Source of the DNA: a virus
Taxonomy: Duplodnaviria; Heunggongvirae; Uroviricota; Caudoviricetes
Length of the DNA stretch: 64,000 nt
Reading direction: 5' to 3' (one strand)
IMG/VR virus record: IMGVR_UViG_3300010201_000017
Shown here: positions 5,276-61,785 of the stretch, in pieces
How the letters are laid out: every line of letters starts with the position of its first letter
Numbering within the stretch: position 1 is the first letter of the stretch
Translations under genes and position numbers: made by a program
The notes under the pieces: generated by a model
What the model saw: only the letters and a program-made list of their open reading frames with translations
Told to the model about the DNA's origin: nothing
Database searches by the model: none

Positions 5276-5372
5276 TTTCGAACTCCAGCGCCGCTACATT
5301 TGATTCCTTTCCGGAATCCTCTATGAATTGTTGTGGGTGACTTATGCCTATCAACTATCCAAAGGATTCCAA

Positions 5373-5531
5373 ATGTCACGTGACGACGCAACCACCGGGA
5401 ACACTGAGCCTTCTTCAACCACCTTCGAACCCGCCTCCACCTTACCCGACGGGTTGTCCGAGCTACTCCTCGTGATCATGGTTGCCGGGATCGTATTTCT
5501 TTTCATTCAAGCGCATTGCAGCTCATTTTGA
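5373..5531 (+). CDS. small hypothetical protein with a C-terminal hydrophobic helix
   Basis: ATG at 5373 preceded by AAGGATTCC. The C-terminus LSELLLVIMVAGIVFLFI is hydrophobic. Confidence 0.3.
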   Translation: MSRDDATTGNTEPSSTTFEPASTLPDGLSELLLVIMVAGIVFLFIQAHCSSF

Positions 5532-5641
5532 TAGCTGGGCCTCCTTTAAGTCCGCGCACTGGAATACCGCCAGTTTCACCCCAAGGATTGACTCGGACCG
5601 TCAGCTCCATATATCCAAGGCTCTGAAGGATTGAATCCTTT

Positions 5642-6262
5642 GTGGTAACATTTTGGGGCCTTGGAACGAAGCAGATGCTGTCTGATCGGCACGTGATGAT
5701 CGATGTAACGTCCCTTGGCTCAACGCCGGGATCTTCGATCCTTGGCATCGCAATGATCGGATTTCAGCCAGGCTGCATCTCCTGCGGAATGGATATCTGG
5801 GAACGGTCGCTTCAAAAACTGCACGTGAGTATCTCCCTAGAGAGCTGCCTTGCTGCAGGACTCTCGATTTCGGCTGATGCGTTGAAGTGGTGGATGCTTC
5901 AGCCCGAAGCGGCTCGAAAGAACGTATTCGGGCAGTCTCAAGCCGAAATTTCCATCGCCGAAGGTTGCCGCCGGGCAGCATCCTTCATCGAGCGTCTTGG
6001 ACCAGATTGCAGAATTTGGTCGGACGACGTCGTCGATAGCATTTCGGTACTCGATGCCGGAATGCGCAAGGTTGGAATCCAACCCCCTTGGTCTTCCAGA
6101 CGAATTCGAGACACTCGAACCGTCTTTGAAGTCGCTGGCATTGAGGATTCATGGCGGCATGACGAGCCCGTCATCGATGCAATGGCTCAAGCAGCGAAGT
6201 TGTCGGCCGCTCTCGTGGCGCTGACTGATCGGGCACAACCCCTCGCAGCAATCGCAGCGTAA
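5642..6262 (+). CDS. hypothetical protein with weak resemblance to DnaQ/DEDDh 3'-5' exonucleases
   Basis: N-terminal VMIDVTSLG resembles exonuclease motif I but has Thr in place of the catalytic Glu. WSDDVVDS and a C-terminal H-x5-DA are present. The call is tentative. GTG start. Confidence 0.35.
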   Translation: MVTFWGLGTKQMLSDRHVMIDVTSLGSTPGSSILGIAMIGFQPGCISCGMDIWERSLQKLHVSISLESCLAAGLSISADALKWWMLQPEAARKNVFGQSQAEISIAEGCRRAASFIERLGPDCRIWSDDVVDSISVLDAGMRKVGIQPPWSSRRIRDTRTVFEVAGIEDSWRHDEPVIDAMAQAAKLSAALVALTDRAQPLAAIAA

Positions 6263-6280
6263 GACACAAAGGAAAGCACT

Positions 6281-6751
6281 ATGCATTTCAAGACACCCAT
6301 GACTTCGCGCGTCATCAACCGACCACGGGCAGCCATGGCTATCATCGTCGCCTCAGTGTTTCTCGGAACCGGGATGAGCGAGGCTTCTGCGAAATCACGA
6401 CATCAGCGGCACCATCACCATCATCGCCACATTGCCAAGGATTCACGATCGACAGCCGAGAGTCTCCGCGGAACGACATTCTCCGGTCTCGCTTCCTTTT
6501 ATGGCAACGAGTCAGGAAGCCGGACTGCTTCTGGGCAGCGAATGAACGCCAGTGCAATGACTGCTGCGCACCGGTCATTACCGTTCGGCACCAAAGTGAA
6601 GGTCACCTTCCAGGGCCGCAGCGTTGTCGTCACGATCAATGATCGAGGACCGTTTATCCGAGGTCGCGTTCTCGACCTCTCCACAGGGGCTGCCCGCGCT
6701 GTCGGGTTGACGGGGAGGGGCGTCGGCCGAATTGTTGCCGAAGTCATTTGA
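6281..6751 (+). CDS. RlpA-like double-psi beta-barrel (septal ring lytic transglycosylase family) protein with signal peptide
   Basis: Signal peptide AMAIIVASVFLGTG, then a His-rich tract RHQRHHHHHRH, then the DPBB motif ASFYG…SGSRTASGQ…TAAHRSLPFGTKVKVTF…GRSVVVTINDRGPF…DLS…AA…LG. Confidence 0.75.
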   Translation: MHFKTPMTSRVINRPRAAMAIIVASVFLGTGMSEASAKSRHQRHHHHHRHIAKDSRSTAESLRGTTFSGLASFYGNESGSRTASGQRMNASAMTAAHRSLPFGTKVKVTFQGRSVVVTINDRGPFIRGRVLDLSTGAARAVGLTGRGVGRIVAEVI

Positions 6752-6830
6752 GGGTCTTCGCCACGAGCGCTCAAAGCCCACTTTGACCATGCATAAACTC
6801 CTCTTATCCTCTTCAAGGATGAATCACTTA

Positions 6831-6856
6831 TCCTGATCTGGATCAGCAGATCAGGA
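6831..6856. promoter_or_regulatory. Inverted repeat TCCTGATC-N10-GATCAGGA (with nested CTGATC-TG-GATCAG) 23-48 bp upstream of ORF 6879
   Basis: Read from the sequence; its position suggests an operator in the promoter of 6879..7415. Confidence 0.4.
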
Positions 6857-60471: not shown

Positions 60472-60480
60472 ACGAACCTC

Positions 60481-60831
60481 TTACAGCCACGCACGTCCGA
60501 GTGAGGCGACCCAGCAGGGCTTGCCATCGATTTCCTCTGGGAATCCCATCGCAGTGGCCGTGACGAGCACAAGGCCGGTCACTAGATCATGTGAGCAATA
60601 GCGCTTGCACTGACGATAGATGGCCCGCTTCGGTGCCTTAATCTTGATCTCGGCAACAATCCCATTCGGAAACTTGAAATCGACGATATCGTCCTCACTC
60701 AGCTTGAATTCTCGCTTGAACTCGACTCCCATCGACGTCAGCACTTCAGCAATCTCGGATTGGAGGGCCTTTTCGCTTCCGAGATTCAGTCGGCGCGAGG
60801 AAATGACTGAAACGAATTCTTGTGGAGACAT
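60481..60831 (-). CDS. VRR-NUC domain nuclease (PD-(D/E)xK)
   Basis: DIVDFKF…GIVAEIKIK fits the D…E-x-K signature. A small protein immediately upstream of an SNF2 helicase is a common phage or mobile-element arrangement. Confidence 0.6.
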   Translation of the reverse strand: MSPQEFVSVISSRRLNLGSEKALQSEIAEVLTSMGVEFKREFKLSEDDIVDFKFPNGIVAEIKIKAPKRAIYRQCKRYCSHDLVTGLVLVTATAMGFPEEIDGKPCWVASLGRAWL

Positions 60832-60926
60832 ACGTCATCTCTAAATGAAGGATTCGATCCGCACTCTGAAGGATTCACGACGCAACGACCATTGCGCAAG
60901 GATCCTGGCAGGGCTGCAAAAGGAAA

Positions 60927-60954
60927 GGGTGCCGAAACTGCGGTTTCGGCACCC
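60927..60954 (-). terminator. Hairpin GGGTGCCGAAAC-N4-GTTTCGGCACCC downstream of the pilin gene
   Basis: A 12-bp stem. On the minus strand it is followed by TTTCCTTTTG. Confidence 0.5.
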
Positions 60955-60976
60955 TAAAGCTTTCCAGACCGATGGC

Positions 60977-61555
60977 TTAGTTGAAGACCCAGTCGATTGT
61001 GTTGGAGCTGCTGCTGCAGGCCGCAATCGCGTTGGTCGGGTCGAACGGAGGAGGGGTGCCAGCCTGCGAACGGGTCTGACCGCCGACGGTCAAGCTGTAG
61101 AGACCACGGCCGAGGTCGGCGCTGACCATCTTGACGCACGGGTCCTTCGGAACGTTGGTGAACTCGATCTGGAAGCCGCTGTTCGAGCCGCCACCAGCGT
61201 CAGCTGGTGTGATGTTGACCGAACCGTTGAACGCATGCCGCAGGGTCGTGCCGCTGACCATGCTGCTGGGAAGAGACGCTGACGCGGCCACCGCCGAAGT
61301 CGTCAGGTTCGAATAGGTCGCCTGACCGCCGTACATCGAGCGGACACCCTGCTGAATGCTTGCGAGCTGACTGAGCGCAGTGGTGGTCTTCCGGCTCTGA
61401 TCGGCACCCGTGTACATCACCATGATGCCAGCCACGACGAAGGCCAGAATTGCAAGAACGGTCGCAGCCTCGATCAGCGTCAAGCCGCGCTGCCGCTTGA
61501 TGGCGGACTTGCGTGAAATCACACCCGGGTCGGTGCCTACGGCAATCGTGTTCAT
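60977..61555 (-). CDS. type IV pilin/pseudopilin (prepilin-type N-terminal cleavage/methylation domain), orphan
   Basis: …KRQRG|LTLIEAATVLAILAFVVAGIMV is the classic G/(F/L)TLIE prepilin motif. The leader is 13-24 aa depending on the start. No pilus assembly genes lie nearby. Confidence 0.6.
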   Translation of the reverse strand: MNTIAVGTDPGVISRKSAIKRQRGLTLIEAATVLAILAFVVAGIMVMYTGADQSRKTTTALSQLASIQQGVRSMYGGQATYSNLTTSAVAASASLPSSMVSGTTLRHAFNGSVNITPADAGGGSNSGFQIEFTNVPKDPCVKMVSADLGRGLYSLTVGGQTRSQAGTPPPFDPTNAIAACSSSSNTIDWVFN

Positions 61556-61785
61556 TCCGAATCTCCAGATTCGTGGCCGCAGCCACTGTTACCACCAAGG
61601 ATCGAGCGCCCGGATTCGAATTGAATCCTTTGTCGAAACCCTTCCGATCAATTAAAGGCTACGAATTCGGCGCCTGTAAAGGGAGGGTGACGTCGGCCGA
61701 AATGGATTCAACCATCCCGGCCGCTGCTTTCCTTGGAAATGCTGGAGAACTGAATATTAGAAAGTTACGCTCAGTGAGGCTGTCT

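What the first reader, a model, noticed from the sequence alone, without database searches (positions are those of the whole stretch)
5362..61627. Recurrent GANTC-containing motif (A)AGGATTCG in more than 20 intergenic or promoter positions across the window
By eye, the 8-9-mer AAGGATTC(G) or its complement occurs at the following positions:
- 5362
- 5626-5640, as the palindrome AAGGATTgAATCCTT
- 12920 and 12939, as an inverted pair
- 12975-13007, as GGATCGAATCC/GGATTCGATCC
- 14985
- 23920
- 24395-24409 and 24474
- 27732
- 35415, 35436 and 35468
- 39919, plus variants at 39878 and 39951
- 43785
- 43853
- 51076 and 51121
- 51214-51228
- 55753
- 56655
- 60848 and 60869
- 61611-61627, as GGATTCGAATTGAATCC

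Nearly all lie between genes; one (43878) is coding. A specific 8-mer is expected about twice in 2 x 64 kb under uniform composition. The core GATTC/GAATC is the GANTC site methylated by CcrM in alphaproteobacteria. The window also encodes its own N6-adenine MTase.

Several copies sit 10-16 nt upstream of start codons, where AAGGA doubles as a Shine-Dalgarno. Many others sit 40-130 bp upstream, in inverted pairs or direct triplets, as for a transcription-factor site.
Basis: seen in the sequence. Interest (0 to 1): 0.7.

Follow-up and report, generated by a model that had tools for sequence, protein, structure and literature searches.

The report
Conserved promoter-region 9-mer AAGGATTCR
A 9-base word, AAGGATTCR, is placed again and again at fixed, helix-phased positions around promoters in this genome and its few uncultured relatives, so it is almost certainly the docking site of an unidentified global gene regulator rather than a CcrM methylation signal or a ribosome-binding site.

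Summary
AAGGATTC occurs 27 times against 3.2 expected and is the most over-represented 8-mer and 9-mer in the window. 21 of the 27 copies lie in the ~12% of the window that is non-coding.

The unit is an asymmetric 9-mer, AAGGATTC[G/A]. The middle base of GANTC is fixed as T, and no partner element sits at a fixed distance.

The window belongs to a rare, uncultured, ORFan-rich replicon lineage of about 0.82-0.87 Mb, with alphaproteobacterial-type rpoD and pyrG. Relatives whose proteins are only 55-80% identical keep the exact 9-mer at orthologous places: upstream of rpoD, of an 845-aa gene, of a 167-aa/YqiJ/flotillin operon, of pyrG, and between CHAP and PTH2. The flanking DNA has diverged.

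Copies sit 4-5 nt downstream of a conserved TTGACR hexamer (inferred about -21) or upstream of it in ~10.5-bp steps. Direct pairs are also helically phased. Antisense copies are enriched too, so recognition is at the DNA level.

Best reading: binding site of a lineage-specific global transcription regulator acting at sigma-70-type promoters. GcrA boxes are the closest analogue, but the 5' flank does not fit and no GcrA or CcrM was found. The reader protein and the sign of regulation remain unknown.

The parts
12920..12928 (+). AAGGATTCA, upstream copy of the rpoD control region. It lies 5 nt 5' of a conserved TTGCAC (-35-like) hexamer.
   Evidence: the arrangement AAGGATTC-N11-GAATCCTT-N33-GAATCCTT is identical in the relative L093 (RpoD 80% identical), while the intervening bases differ
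12938..12946 (-). AAGGATTCG in reverse orientation, abutting the -35-like TTGCAC (12933-12938). Inferred position about -29 to -22 of the rpoD promoter.
   Evidence: the TTGC and GTAGAACGGC blocks are conserved between the window and L093
12979..12987 (-). AAGGATTCG in reverse orientation, 53 nt before the rpoD start codon. Inferred position about +13 to +20.
35415..35423 (+). AAGGATTCG, first of three direct copies upstream of the 845-aa gene (true start 35543)
   Evidence: spacings of 21 and 32 bp
35436..35444 (+). AAGGATTCG, second direct copy, 12 nt 5' of TTGACA (35457-35462)
35468..35476 (+). AAGGATTCG inside the promoter spacer: TTGACA-gcgac-AAGGATTCG-cTGcc-TAAAAT. The GATTC centre is inferred at about -21.
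   Evidence: the block TTGACAGC-N3-AAGGATTCGCTG is conserved in L085
43785..43793 (+). AAGGATTCA, 15 nt 5' of the conserved TTGACG (43809-43814) of the hyp167-YqiJ-flotillin operon promoter
   Evidence: L090 has AAGGATTCG at the same alignment columns
43822..43827 (+). Core (GAATTC) of the decayed spacer copy gtgGAATTCg. It corresponds to AAGGATTCG in L085, ATGGATTCG in L090 and AAGGATTCA in L087 at the same spacer position.
   Evidence: alignment A2, four genomes
43870..43878 (+). AAGGATTCG in codons 3-5 (Met-Ser-Lys-Gly-Phe) of hyp167. Conserved in L085 and L090. It may be a downstream site (inferred about +27 to +35) or simply protein-coded.
39919..39927 (+). AAGGATTCG in the divergent pyrG / EF-hand-protein region, 125 nt from the pyrG start
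   Evidence: L085 has a copy at the same 125-nt distance, and ATCGAATCCTT is conserved
51076..51084 (+). AAGGATTCA in the divergent CHAP / tRNA-Ile-PTH2 region
   Evidence: the L090 CHAP/PTH2 region also carries a copy
51121..51129 (+). AAGGATTCG, same region, 112 nt before tRNA-Ile
51219..51227 (-). AAGGATTCG in reverse orientation, 13 nt before the tRNA-Ile 5' end, inside the inferred promoter spacer
   Evidence: promoter assignment by eye only
55753..55761 (+). AAGGATTCG, 24 nt 5' of TTGACA (55786) and 76 nt before the MTase-like/thyA/folA operon
24402..24410 (-). AAGGATTCG, 84 nt upstream of the PilZ gene, sense orientation
24474..24482 (-). AAGGATTCG, 156 nt upstream of the PilZ gene, 72 bp from the previous copy
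23920..23928 (+). AAGGATTCA, antisense to both flanking genes, 77 nt upstream of PcfJ, overlapping the PilZ stop codon
60848..60856 (+). AAGGATTCG, antisense copy 16 nt upstream of the hyp116-SNF2 operon
60869..60877 (+). AAGGATTCA, antisense copy 21 bp from the previous one
61622..61630 (-). AAGGATTCA, 67 nt upstream of the type IV pilin-like gene; part of GGATTCGAATTGAATCC
5632..5640 (-). AAGGATTCA, forming the near-palindrome AAGGATTgAATCCTT, 34 nt upstream of an Rv2179c-like exonuclease gene
5362..5370 (+). AAGGATTCC, 3 nt before the start codon of a 52-aa ORF. AAGGA doubles as the ribosome-binding site here.
14985..14993 (+). AAGGATTCA, 4 nt before the GatB_Yqey-domain gene start (ribosome-binding position)
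27732..27740 (+). Variant ATGGATTCG, 13 nt 5' of a TAGACT(-35-like)-N17-TATATG element upstream of tRNA(CAT)
   Evidence: promoter assignment by eye only
45271..45279 (+). Coding copy in the flotillin gene (Thr-Lys-Asp-Ser). Conserved in L090 through the protein sequence, so probably not a regulatory site. The copies at 46147, 9080, 6437 and 48439 are likewise coding.

Best explanation
AAGGATTCR is the DNA recognition site of a sequence-specific DNA-binding protein that acts as a global transcription regulator of this replicon lineage.

Shown:
- It is a self-contained asymmetric 9-mer.
- It is concentrated about 30-fold in non-coding DNA.
- It is used in both orientations.
- It is kept base-for-base at orthologous promoter regions in genomes whose proteins are only 55-80% identical.
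- It is positioned on one face of the helix relative to a conserved TTGACR (-35-type) hexamer. Forward copies start +9 to +11 from the hexamer start, inside the spacer, or at about -22, -33, -44, -55 and -65.
- Neighbouring direct copies are spaced at multiples of ~10.5 bp.

Inferred:
- One monomer-sized DNA-binding domain reads each copy.
- It works together with RNA polymerase carrying a sigma-70-type factor; the replicon encodes its own RpoD.
- Sites lie at about -21 or -27 in the spacer, +13 to +35 downstream, and at phased upstream positions.

My preferred mode, at about 55% given that this is a transcription-factor site, is a polymerase co-factor or activator of the GcrA type that reads a GATTCG core, possibly in a methylation-dependent way. 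The alternative is a dispersed repressor operator. The reader protein is not identified and is not recognisably encoded in the window.
For: - Enrichment: 27 vs 3.2 copies, and top 8-/9-mer.
- 21 of 27 copies are non-coding, P = 4e-15.
- Every position is constrained, with R at position 9 and 'not G' at position 10. No other conserved column lies within +/-45 nt in 45 non-coding copies.
- Lineage specificity: 0.42 copies/kb in the window, 9 in 21.6 kb in L085 and 8 in 15.8 kb in L090. This compares with 0.028/kb across 1.4 Mb of other bacterial rpoD loci and 0-1 copies in ordinary alphaproteobacterial loci.
- Orthologous conservation with diverged flanks:
  - hyp167 promoter in four genomes
  - 845-aa gene promoter
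  - pyrG region, at the same 125-nt distance
  - rpoD upstream, with identical 19 and 41 bp spacings in L093 and two copies in L092
- Helical phasing of direct pairs: R = 0.74, p = 2.5e-4. With orthologous duplicates removed, n = 11 and p = 0.0025.
- Phasing relative to TTGAC[AGT]: p = 0.01, with a cluster of five copies at +9 to +11.
- In co-directional intergenic regions there are 5 sense and 4 antisense copies, which rules out an RNA-only signal.
- Further motif-rich loci of related replicons came from a metagenome scan: L168, with PcfJ and PTH2 homologues, plus L137, L109 and L140.
- Published GcrA boxes have best site TGATTCG, bind as a monomer, and are centred at -20+/-1, -30+/-2 or +5 to +30 (PMC4647560, PMC5887438, PMC9976885). 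They match the core and the inferred positions.
Against: - No binding protein is identified. No GcrA, CcrM, CsrA or HTH protein appears in the window or in the annotated related loci.
- There are no transcription start data. An E. coli-type sigma-70 scan finds no promoter in the three best regions. TTGACR-anchored sequences give no clear -10 consensus. All -/+ coordinates therefore rest on a conserved -35-like hexamer and on -10 calls made by eye.
- Only about 6-8 independent promoter regions carry the positional argument, and some pairs are orthologous duplicates.
- Four loci in the -35 phasing test (L137, L109, L168, L140) came from the motif-pair scan and were then kept for their high motif count, so they are a selected sample.
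- The 5' flank (AAG, so G before GATTC) is a purine. Caulobacter GcrA prefers a pyrimidine there, and sites with 5' purines ranked lowest.
- Far-upstream copies (-43 to -65) lie outside the range reported for GcrA boxes.
- Sites overlapping the core promoter and downstream of it fit a repressor equally well.
Confidence: 0.7

Rival explanations
1. Dispersed operator of a global repressor. A single monomer-binding repressor holds many operons of a large, possibly extrachromosomal or viral, replicon silent through asymmetric operators scattered over the genome. Phage P1 C1 repressor does this with its roughly 17-20 asymmetric 17-bp operators (from my own knowledge of P1 biology). This shares the 'protein-binding site' core of the best explanation but reverses the sign.
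For: - Copies overlap the inferred core promoter (spacer, abutting the -35) and lie just downstream of the inferred start: the rpoD copy at +13 to +20, the hyp167 copy at about +27 to +35, and the tRNA-Ile copy.
- Several copies bracket single promoters with helical phasing, which would allow cooperative binding or looping.
- Site density, about 0.33 non-coding copies per kb, is similar to that of P1 operators.
- Gene content is ORFan-rich, with mobile-element-type genes: PcfJ, ART-PolyVal, AbiEii, CHAP, GP38-like, SNF2.
Against: - Many copies lie at -43 to -65, typical activator positions.
- Motif-bearing promoters look intrinsically weak and are not found by a consensus scan, as expected for activator-dependent promoters.
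- No repressor gene is identified.
- The mobile-element or viral nature of the replicon is unproven. No PHROG structural hits, no relatives in phage, plasmid or IMG/VR collections.
Confidence: 0.3
2. Genuine GcrA/CcrM epigenetic module. The GATTC core is N6-adenine methylated by a CcrM-type enzyme, either the host's or one encoded elsewhere on the replicon. It is then read by a GcrA-family protein bound to sigma-70.
For: - The GATTCG core equals six of the seven bases of the best Caulobacter GcrA site, TGATTCG.
- The site is asymmetric and usable in both orientations.
- Inferred positions of about -21, -27 and +13 to +35 match the published -20+/-1, -30+/-2 and +5 to +30.
- The context is alphaproteobacterial: RpoD and PyrG are closest to Hyphomicrobiales.
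Against: - The base before GATTC is G, while GcrA wants C or T and sites with 5' purines ranked lowest.
- 38% of non-coding copies end in A rather than G.
- The extra invariant AA is unexplained.
- No GcrA (PF07750) or CcrM is seen in about 150 kb of lineage sequence.
- The methyltransferases that are present are of other types.
- GANTC is not depleted as it is in ordinary alphaproteobacteria.
- Ordinary alphaproteobacterial loci do not carry the 9-mer.
Confidence: 0.2
3. RNA-level signal in 5' leaders: an extended Shine-Dalgarno, or a CsrA/RsmA-type GGA binding site (consensus A-N-GGA). Several copies would sit per leader, with one over the ribosome-binding site.
For: - AAGGA is a good Shine-Dalgarno core.
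- Copies 5362 and 14985, and variants at 43852 and 56655, sit at ribosome-binding distance.
- Several genes have 2-3 sense copies within 160 nt of the start codon.
- Overall there is a sense bias, 20 on + against 7 on -.
Against: - In co-directional intergenic regions 4 of 9 copies are antisense (23920, 60848, 60869, 5633), against roughly 0.2 expected by chance from the shuffle rate. Antisense copies are conserved in relatives.
- A 10.5-bp periodicity is a property of double-stranded DNA.
- Copies lie between a conserved -35 hexamer and the -10 region, or upstream of the -35.
- The strict TTCR tail is not part of any anti-SD pairing or CsrA consensus.
- Only 2 of 21 copies are at SD distance.
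- No CsrA was found.
Confidence: 0.05
4. The -35-type element of an alternative sigma factor, for example the 252-aa sigma-70-family protein at 63176-63934.
For: - The window encodes a second sigma factor.
- The motif is promoter-associated.
Against: - No conserved partner (-10) element lies at any fixed distance in 45 copies.
- Copies occur in both orientations, in clusters of 2-4, and inside the spacers of TTGACR promoters.
Confidence: 0.04
5. A genome-wide word with a non-transcriptional role: DNA uptake sequence, Chi/KOPS-like polar signal, or restriction/modification target. Alternatively, remnants of a miniature repeat element.
For: - A density of about 0.4/kb is in the range of uptake sequences.
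- Some copies form inverted pairs (12920/12939, 5626-5640, 61611-61630).
- A type IV pilin-like gene is present.
Against: - 78% of copies lie in 12% of the sequence, and the coding copies are explained by Lys-Asp-Ser or Lys-Gly-Phe codons.
- Flanks share no similarity, so this is not a mobile repeat.
- Placement is fixed relative to the -35 hexamers and conserved at orthologous promoters.
- By contrast, the co-enriched palindrome TTCCGGAA does behave like a genome-wide word, with 36 of 39 copies coding and in all frames.
Confidence: 0.03

Closest known systems
GcrA boxes (m6A-GANTC subset YGAKTCG) of Caulobacter and other Alphaproteobacteria
   Same: - Asymmetric short site with a GATTCG core.
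- Read one copy at a time.
- Functional in either orientation.
- Located in the -35/-10 spacer (about -20 or -30) or just downstream of the start of sigma-70-type promoters.
- Alphaproteobacterial setting.
- Many targets across the genome.
   Different: - Two further invariant bases (AA), and G rather than a pyrimidine 5' of GATTC.
- N fixed to T.
- Additional helically phased copies at -43 to -65, and clusters of 2-4 copies.
- Neither methylation, GcrA nor CcrM is demonstrated in this lineage.
Phage P1 C1 repressor operators: asymmetric 17-bp sites dispersed over a 94-kb plasmid-prophage (from my own knowledge)
   Same: - Non-palindromic operator.
- Single or paired in either orientation.
- Scattered at many promoters of one large replicon at about 0.2-0.3 sites per kb.
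- Some sites overlap core promoters.
   Different: - 9 bp rather than 17 bp.
- Helical phasing upstream of the -35.
- Replicon type unknown.
- No repressor identified.
MarA/SoxS/Rob marboxes and NarL heptamers: monomer-read asymmetric sites (from my own knowledge)
   Same: Asymmetric sites whose function depends on orientation and on helical phase relative to the -35 element. They occur singly or in varied pair arrangements.
   Different: Different sequences and lengths (20-bp marbox, 7-bp heptamer). Those readers are known AraC- or GerE-family proteins, and none is linked to this motif here.
Shine-Dalgarno sequence (AAGGAGG)
   Same: Shares AAGGA. Two exact copies and two variants do sit at ribosome-binding distance.
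   Different: - The TTCR tail is not complementary to the 16S rRNA 3' end.
- Most copies are 35-160 nt upstream.
- Both orientations occur, and copies lie upstream of -35 hexamers.

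Membership tests
GcrA box / CcrM epigenetic site | Contains GANTC with any middle base, as the methylation target of CcrM | tested here: inconclusive
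   The motif contains GATTC, but the middle base is fixed (T 17; A 2, C 2, G 1). GANTC overall is at the mononucleotide expectation.
GcrA box / CcrM epigenetic site | Extended consensus YGAKTCG/K: pyrimidine 5' of GA, G or T in the middle, G or T at the 3' end | tested here: not met
   The 5' base is invariably G. The middle T and the 3' G (26 of 45) fit, but the 3' base is A in 17 of 45 copies (consensus from PMC4647560).
GcrA box / CcrM epigenetic site | Box centred at -20+/-1 or -30+/-2 in the spacer, or at +5 to +30 | tested here: inconclusive
   Inferred centres are about -21 (845-aa gene, hyp167), about -27 and about +16 (rpoD), and about +31 (hyp167). However, start sites are inferred from conserved -35-like hexamers only. 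The consensus promoter scan is negative, and further copies lie at -43 to -65.
GcrA box / CcrM epigenetic site | Presence of GcrA (PF07750) and a CcrM-type beta-class GANTC methyltransferase | tested here: not met
   Neither is found in the window or in about 150 kb of related loci. The methyltransferases present are an NPPF type with motif I before NPPF (my reading: gamma-class) and an M.PvuII-like enzyme. The rest of the replicon and the host could not be searched.
GcrA box / CcrM epigenetic site | N6-adenine methylation of the site | not testable with these tools
   Needs SMRT or nanopore kinetics from the source samples.
Shine-Dalgarno / extended ribosome-binding site | Sense orientation, 4-12 nt upstream of the start codon | tested here: not met
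   Only 2 of 21 non-coding copies (5362, 14985) qualify. Four copies are antisense in co-directional regions.
CsrA/RsmA binding sites | GGA motif in transcribed 5' leaders, sense strand only, reader CsrA (PF02599) | tested here: not met
   Antisense copies are enriched. There is a 10.5-bp DNA periodicity. Copies lie upstream of or within the inferred promoters. No CsrA appears in the annotations.
DNA uptake sequence (DUS/USS) | Over-represented throughout the genome including coding DNA, often as inverted-repeat terminators | tested here: not met
   78% of copies lie in the 12% non-coding fraction, and they sit upstream of genes rather than at 3' ends.
Alternative-sigma promoter element | Partner element at fixed spacing and a single orientation relative to the gene | tested here: not met
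   No informative column lies within +/-45 nt, and both orientations occur.
Interspersed repeat (REP/MITE) | Similarity extending beyond the core, with terminal inverted repeats | tested here: not met
   Flanking columns carry no information, and the contexts are unrelated.
Transcription-factor binding site / operator (generic) | Intergenic enrichment, conservation at orthologous regulatory regions with diverged flanks, and phased position relative to core promoter elements | tested here: met
Transcription-factor binding site / operator (generic) | Identified cognate DNA-binding protein and a demonstrated effect on transcription | not testable with these tools
   No candidate is recognisable in the window. 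This needs pull-down, DAP-seq and reporter assays.

The most novel reading that the evidence does not exclude
The 9-mer is the master control word of a previously undescribed type of very large (about 0.82-0.87 Mb), ORFan-rich replicon associated with Hyphomicrobiales: a giant extrachromosomal element or phage-like entity, or a highly aberrant reduced cell.

Features of this replicon:
- It carries its own divergent RpoD, a second sigma factor, tRNAs (including an Ile-AAT tRNA, and a CAT tRNA next to a TilS-like gene), and SMC/ScpB.
- It also carries pyrG and thyA-folA. PyrG looks recently host-acquired (81% identical to Nitrobacteraceae/Xanthobacteraceae proteins, outside its usual gene neighbourhood).

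In this reading a novel, still unrecognised small DNA-binding protein, possibly reading an epigenetic mark laid down by the replicon's own orphan adenine methyltransferase, docks on AAGGATTCR. It thereby switches several hundred promoters of the element on or off together.
Probability: 0.3. Interest if true: 0.8.

Novelty: new member of a known kind. Interest (0 to 1): 0.5.

Why it matters
The motif gives a concrete, testable handle on gene regulation in a lineage for which nothing else is known. About 60-70% of its proteins have no Pfam or PHROG match, and a marker protein (hyp360) has only 23 homologues among 5.8 billion proteins.

A 9-bp word conserved across genomes whose proteins have diverged to 55-60% identity marks the promoters of rpoD, pyrG, thyA-folA, tRNA, pilin and other operons. 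It can therefore be used in three ways:
- to recognise further members of the lineage in metagenomes;
- to predict its regulon and promoters;
- to fish out the reader protein.

That extension would be to a new specificity, and perhaps to a mobile or viral replicon.

Tried and rejected
- **Genome-collection scan with RpoD.** It returned only distant relatives (about 40-50% identity), so the organism is not among GTDB species representatives.
- **Exact look-up of the 627-aa RpoD.** Failed because the JGI start codon differs. It worked with other proteins.
- **The search for related loci with the hyp360 alignment, viral and metagenome collections.** No relatives found, because the back-translated patterns were poor.
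- **PHROGs and Pfam on the large and small ORFans.** No structural phage genes and no DNA-binding candidate.
- **tblastn against the phage and plasmid collections.** Nothing closer than about 25% (845-aa protein) or about 57% (RpoD).
- **Full-text search for the 9-mer.** Only primers and unrelated eukaryotic hits.
- **Huge-phage literature search.** No described match.
- **Consensus promoter/terminator scan on the three best regions.** No hits.
- **Deriving a -10 consensus from intergenic TTGACR sites.** Too few sites.
- **GANTC depletion test.** Inconclusive.
- **Motif-pair scan of IMG/VR.** No motif-rich loci and no lineage members; the only protein matches were two distant ones (ThyA 43-50%, SNF2 26% identity).
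- **Small divergent ORF 34971-35174 as a possible autoregulator.** Rejected, because it is a conserved secreted peptide.
- **Considered and rejected by sequence or arrangement:** DnaA box, iterons, Chi/KOPS, tRNA T-arm remnants.

Full report
**1. The observation**

AAGGATTC occurs 27 times on both strands of the 64-kb window. Dinucleotide-preserving shuffles give 3.2 +/- 1.95, with a maximum of 9. Under a 3rd-order Markov background it is the most over-represented 8-mer. AAGGATTCG (17 observed, 1.2 expected) is the most over-represented 9-mer. The 6-mer GGATTC alone is not enriched (69 vs 59), so the signal lies in the full word.

Substituting each position shows that all eight bases are constrained. 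The ninth base is G (17) or A (9). The middle base of the embedded GANTC is not free: T 17, against A 2, C 2, G 1.

In 45 non-coding copies pooled from this genome and its relatives, no other column within +/-45 nt carries information, apart from 'not G' at position 10. The unit is therefore a self-contained, asymmetric 9-10-mer, AAGGATTCR(H).

A few are one- or two-mismatch variants (27732, 39879, 39941-39949, 43852, 56655). Five coding copies were missed.

**2. Where the window comes from**

The sequence is 100% identical to two contigs of JGI metagenome 3300000497. These are Incfw_1000046 (233,669 bp, ending at window 47486) and Incfw_1000011 (633,648 bp, starting near 47547). They are joined inside an IS transposase gene.

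Those records supply independent gene calls and Pfam annotation, giving 88% coding. Recognisable genes are:
- a full-length RpoD (13041-14909), PyrG, MgsA and a TilS-like protein next to a tRNA(CAT);
- ClpS, PilZ, a PBP5-type peptidase and a histidine kinase;
- flotillin/YqiJ, thyA-folA behind an NPPF methyltransferase-like gene, and a type IV pilin-like protein;
- a second sigma factor;
- mobile-element-type genes: PcfJ, ART-PolyVal, AbiEii, SNF2, CHAP, He_PIG/GP38-like, PTH2 and an RF-1-domain protein.

Most ORFs match nothing in Pfam or PHROGs.

PyrG is 81% identical to Nitrobacteraceae/Xanthobacteraceae proteins. RpoD is only about 55% identical to any named Hyphomicrobiales RpoD. Neither gene lies in its usual neighbourhood. 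The ordinary pyrG locus L086, for example, has secG on one side and a DAHP_synth_1 (kdsA-like) gene on the other.

All ten proteins tested form one- or two-member 90%-identity clusters known only from JGI. A marker ORFan, hyp360, has 23 homologues among 5.8 billion proteins.

Two relatives carry pyrG on contigs of 820,224 and 823,350 bp. The first of these, L085, is syntenic with the window. The two contigs of this genome sum to 867 kb. That suggests complete replicons of about 0.82-0.87 Mb.

Whether this is a giant extrachromosomal or phage-like element or an aberrant reduced cell could not be settled. There are no relatives in the phage, plasmid or IMG/VR collections. Other motif-rich loci of the group encode SMC, ScpB, RuvA and GGDEF/EAL among about 70% ORFans.

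**3. Distribution relative to genes**

With the JGI gene calls, 19 of 27 copies are non-coding. Two corrections change this.

First, alignment with the orthologue in L085 shows that the '891-aa' gene really starts at 35543 (MAKASN...). The triplet 35415/35436/35468 is therefore upstream of it.

Second, copy 6437 lies in an unannotated DPBB/RlpA-like gene at 6281-6751.

The final count is 21 of 27 in 11.7% of the sequence (P = 4e-15). The six coding copies encode Lys-Asp-Ser or Lys-Gly-Phe, or lie antisense in the transposase. The two flotillin copies recur in L090 because the protein is conserved.

Only 5362 and 14985 sit at ribosome-binding distance. In intergenic regions flanked by co-directional genes, 5 copies are sense and 4 antisense (23920, 60848, 60869, 5633). 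From the shuffle rate, roughly 0.2 antisense copies would be expected by chance. Recognition is therefore at the DNA level and does not depend on orientation.

**4. Conservation in relatives**

| Locus | Relation to the window | AAGGATTC copies |
|---|---|---|
| L085 | syntenic; PyrG 81%, hyp360 and the 845-aa protein 59% identical | 9 (all AAGGATTCG) in 21.6 kb, 0.4 expected |
| L090 | hyp360 55% identical | 8 in 15.8 kb |
| L087 | hyp360 48% identical, 69% GC | 3 in 14.4 kb |
| L089 | hyp360 42% identical | 0 in 17.5 kb |
| Ordinary alphaproteobacterial loci (L001-L004, L086) | not related | 0-1 each |
| 80 rpoD loci of other bacteria (1.4 Mb) | not related | 0.028/kb, against 0.42/kb in the window |

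The copies are orthologous:

(a) **hyp167-YqiJ-flotillin operon, four genomes.** The aligned block is CTGTTGAC(G/T)G-N4-[AAGGATTCG in L085 / ATGGATTCG in L090 / AAGGATTCA in L087 / GTGGAATTCG in the window]-TTGC(A/G)ATAAG. There is also an upstream copy about 15 nt 5' of the TTGACG in the window and in L090. A further copy lies in codons 3-5 in three genomes.

(b) **845-aa gene.** TTGACAGC-N3-AAGGATTCGCTG is conserved between the window and L085. Upstream of it the window has two further copies and L085 has three.

(c) **pyrG / EF-hand-gene divergent region.** ATCGAATCCTT is conserved, 125 nt from the pyrG start in both genomes.

(d) **rpoD.** The window and L093 (RpoD 80% identical) share AAGGATTC-N5-TTGC-N2-GAATCCTT-N8-GTAGAACGGC...GAATCCTT. 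The copy-to-copy spacings are identical (19 and 41 bp) although the intervening bases differ. L092 (RpoD 65%) has two copies upstream of rpoD.

(e) **CHAP/PTH2 divergent region.** It carries copies in both the window and L090.

A metagenome scan for direct pairs returned mostly chance or tandem-repeat hits. It also returned further motif-rich loci: L168, with PcfJ and PTH2 homologues and 8 copies in 13.6 kb, plus L137, L109 and L140.

**5. Geometry**

Adjacent direct copies are spaced 19, 21, 21, 32, 41, 41, 45, 51, 51, 53, 72, 84 and 85 bp. This is a 10.5-bp periodicity (Rayleigh R = 0.74, p = 2.5e-4). After dropping orthologous duplicates, n = 11 and p = 0.0025.

Relative to the start of any TTGAC[AGT] hexamer within range, forward copies cluster as follows:
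- +9 to +11: five copies from promoter regions of three different genes
- -21 to -24
- -33
- -42 to -48
- -55/-56
- -65

The phasing test gives p = 0.01. Reverse copies abut the hexamer on either side. Examples are TTGCAC|GAATCCTT at rpoD, TTGAC|GAATCCTT twice in L168, and GAATCCTT-g-TTGACA in L085.

I take the conserved TTGACR as a -35 element. I assign the -10 regions by eye from my recollection of the Caulobacter housekeeping consensus TTGACGS / GCTANAWC. On that basis the GATTC core lies at about -21 (hyp167 and the 845-aa gene). At rpoD it lies at about -27 and about +16, and in hyp167 also at about +31. The phased upstream positions follow the same reference.

These coordinates are inferences. 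An E. coli-type consensus scan finds no promoter in the three regions. The few intergenic TTGACR sites give no clear -10 consensus.

**6. Mechanism**

The following together define a protein-binding cis-regulatory site read one copy at a time:
- intergenic concentration;
- base-perfect conservation at orthologous regulatory regions with diverged flanks;
- use in both orientations;
- lack of a partner element;
- helical phasing relative both to other copies and to a -35-type hexamer.

There are about 0.33 non-coding copies per kb.

The closest documented analogue is GcrA. Its best site is TGATTCG. It binds as a monomer tethered to sigma-70 domain 2. Its boxes are centred at -20+/-1 or -30+/-2 in the spacer, or at +5 to +30 (PMC4647560, PMC5887438, PMC9976885). 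The core and the inferred positions match well.

Membership, however, fails on several points:
- the 5' flank is G where GcrA needs a pyrimidine;
- two additional invariant A's are unexplained;
- copies occur at -43 to -65;
- no GcrA or CcrM is detectable in about 150 kb of lineage DNA.

The methyltransferases present are of other kinds. The window's 268-aa protein has EPTAGVGNF followed by IGNPPF, which I read as gamma-class order. L090 encodes an M.PvuII-like enzyme.

Sites overlapping and bracketing core promoters are equally compatible with a dispersed repressor operator of the phage P1 C1 type. I therefore commit to 'global transcription-factor site at sigma-70-type promoters' with confidence 0.7. 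Within that, I lean slightly (about 55:45) towards a co-factor or activator mode over repression. I put about 0.2 on a true GcrA-family reader.

**7. Rivals rejected**

- An extended Shine-Dalgarno or CsrA-type RNA site is contradicted by the antisense copies, the DNA periodicity and the copies upstream of the -35 hexamers.
- An alternative-sigma -35 element is contradicted by the absence of any fixed-distance partner.
- Uptake, Chi or KOPS-like words are contradicted by the 78% non-coding bias. The co-enriched palindrome TTCCGGAA, by contrast, is 36/39 coding in all frames.
- Interspersed repeats are contradicted by the unrelated flanks.

**8. Verdict**

The finding is real and biologically meaningful. 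It is a new regulatory word of a known general kind, a transcription-factor site, in a very poorly known replicon lineage. The CcrM link is not supported.

Noticed in passing
whole window; L085, L087, L089, L090, L092, L093, L168: The window belongs to a rare, uncultured lineage of ORFan-rich replicons.
- Two relatives have contigs of 820,224 and 823,350 bp, and this genome's two contigs sum to 867 kb.
- About 60-70% of proteins have no Pfam or PHROG match.
- rpoD and pyrG sit outside their usual neighbourhoods.
- PyrG is 81% identical to Nitrobacteraceae/Xanthobacteraceae proteins, but RpoD is only about 55% identical to any named Hyphomicrobiales RpoD.
- No relatives exist in the phage, plasmid or IMG/VR collections.
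Whether it is a giant mobile or viral element or an aberrant reduced cell is unresolved.
   Followed up: partly
window-wide (e.g. 905, 11290, 13639, 39050, 44901, 52408, 55988, 58750); also L085 and L090: The palindrome TTCCGGAA, and CTTCCGGA, is the second most over-represented word (CTTCCGGA 20 vs 3.7 expected). It is co-enriched in L085 (TTCCGGAA 10 vs 1.2 expected) and L090 (9 vs 1.1 expected). Unlike the main motif, 36 of the 39 TCCGGAA/TTCCGGA 7-mer hits are coding, in all three frames. It is absent from L087 and L092. It behaves like a genome-wide word, and its function is unknown.
   Followed up: partly
window 51241-51316 and 27000-27865: A tRNA-Ile with anticodon AAT, which to my knowledge is unusual for bacteria. 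Also a tRNA with anticodon CAT directly downstream of a TilS-like (ATP_bind_3) gene, suggesting a tRNA-Ile2/lysidine cassette. PTH2 and an RF-1-domain protein are also present.
   Followed up: no
window 12841-12854: A perfect palindrome, GTTTCACGTGAAAC, lies in the hyp396/rpoD divergent region. It is conserved within the block TTCGTTTCACGTGAAACC in the relative L093. It is probably the site of a second, dimeric regulator.
   Followed up: no
window 35405-35543: The JGI start of the '891-aa' gene is too far upstream. Orthologue alignment places the start at 35543 (MAKASN...). That puts three motif copies and a TTGACA hexamer in the upstream region.
   Followed up: yes
window 6281-6751 (+) versus 6578-6790 (-): An unannotated ORF encodes a DPBB_1 (RlpA-like lytic transglycosylase) domain protein (E = 4.6e-24). 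The 70-aa gene called on the opposite strand is probably spurious.
   Followed up: yes
window 55837-57972: A 268-aa protein with EPTAGVGNF and IGNPPF motifs (N6-adenine methyltransferase-like, no Pfam hit) heads an operon with thyA and folA. One motif copy lies 76 nt upstream. Its target sequence is unknown, and it could be the enzyme that marks the motif.
   Followed up: partly
window 47284-48507 (-): An IS transposase (phrog_506, E = 2e-90) coincides with the break between the two JGI contigs, so it is probably a multi-copy insertion sequence.
   Followed up: no
window 34971-35174 (-); L085 14695-14901: A conserved 67-68-aa ORF has a signal-peptide-like N-terminus and an identical RRLTD(Y/F)CRSASDADVVEGLCDTVR core. 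It is divergently transcribed from the 845-aa gene.
   Followed up: no
window 53478-55186: An AbiEii toxin-domain gene is preceded by a 214-aa ORF. This is a likely AbiE-type toxin-antitoxin or abortive-infection pair.
   Followed up: no
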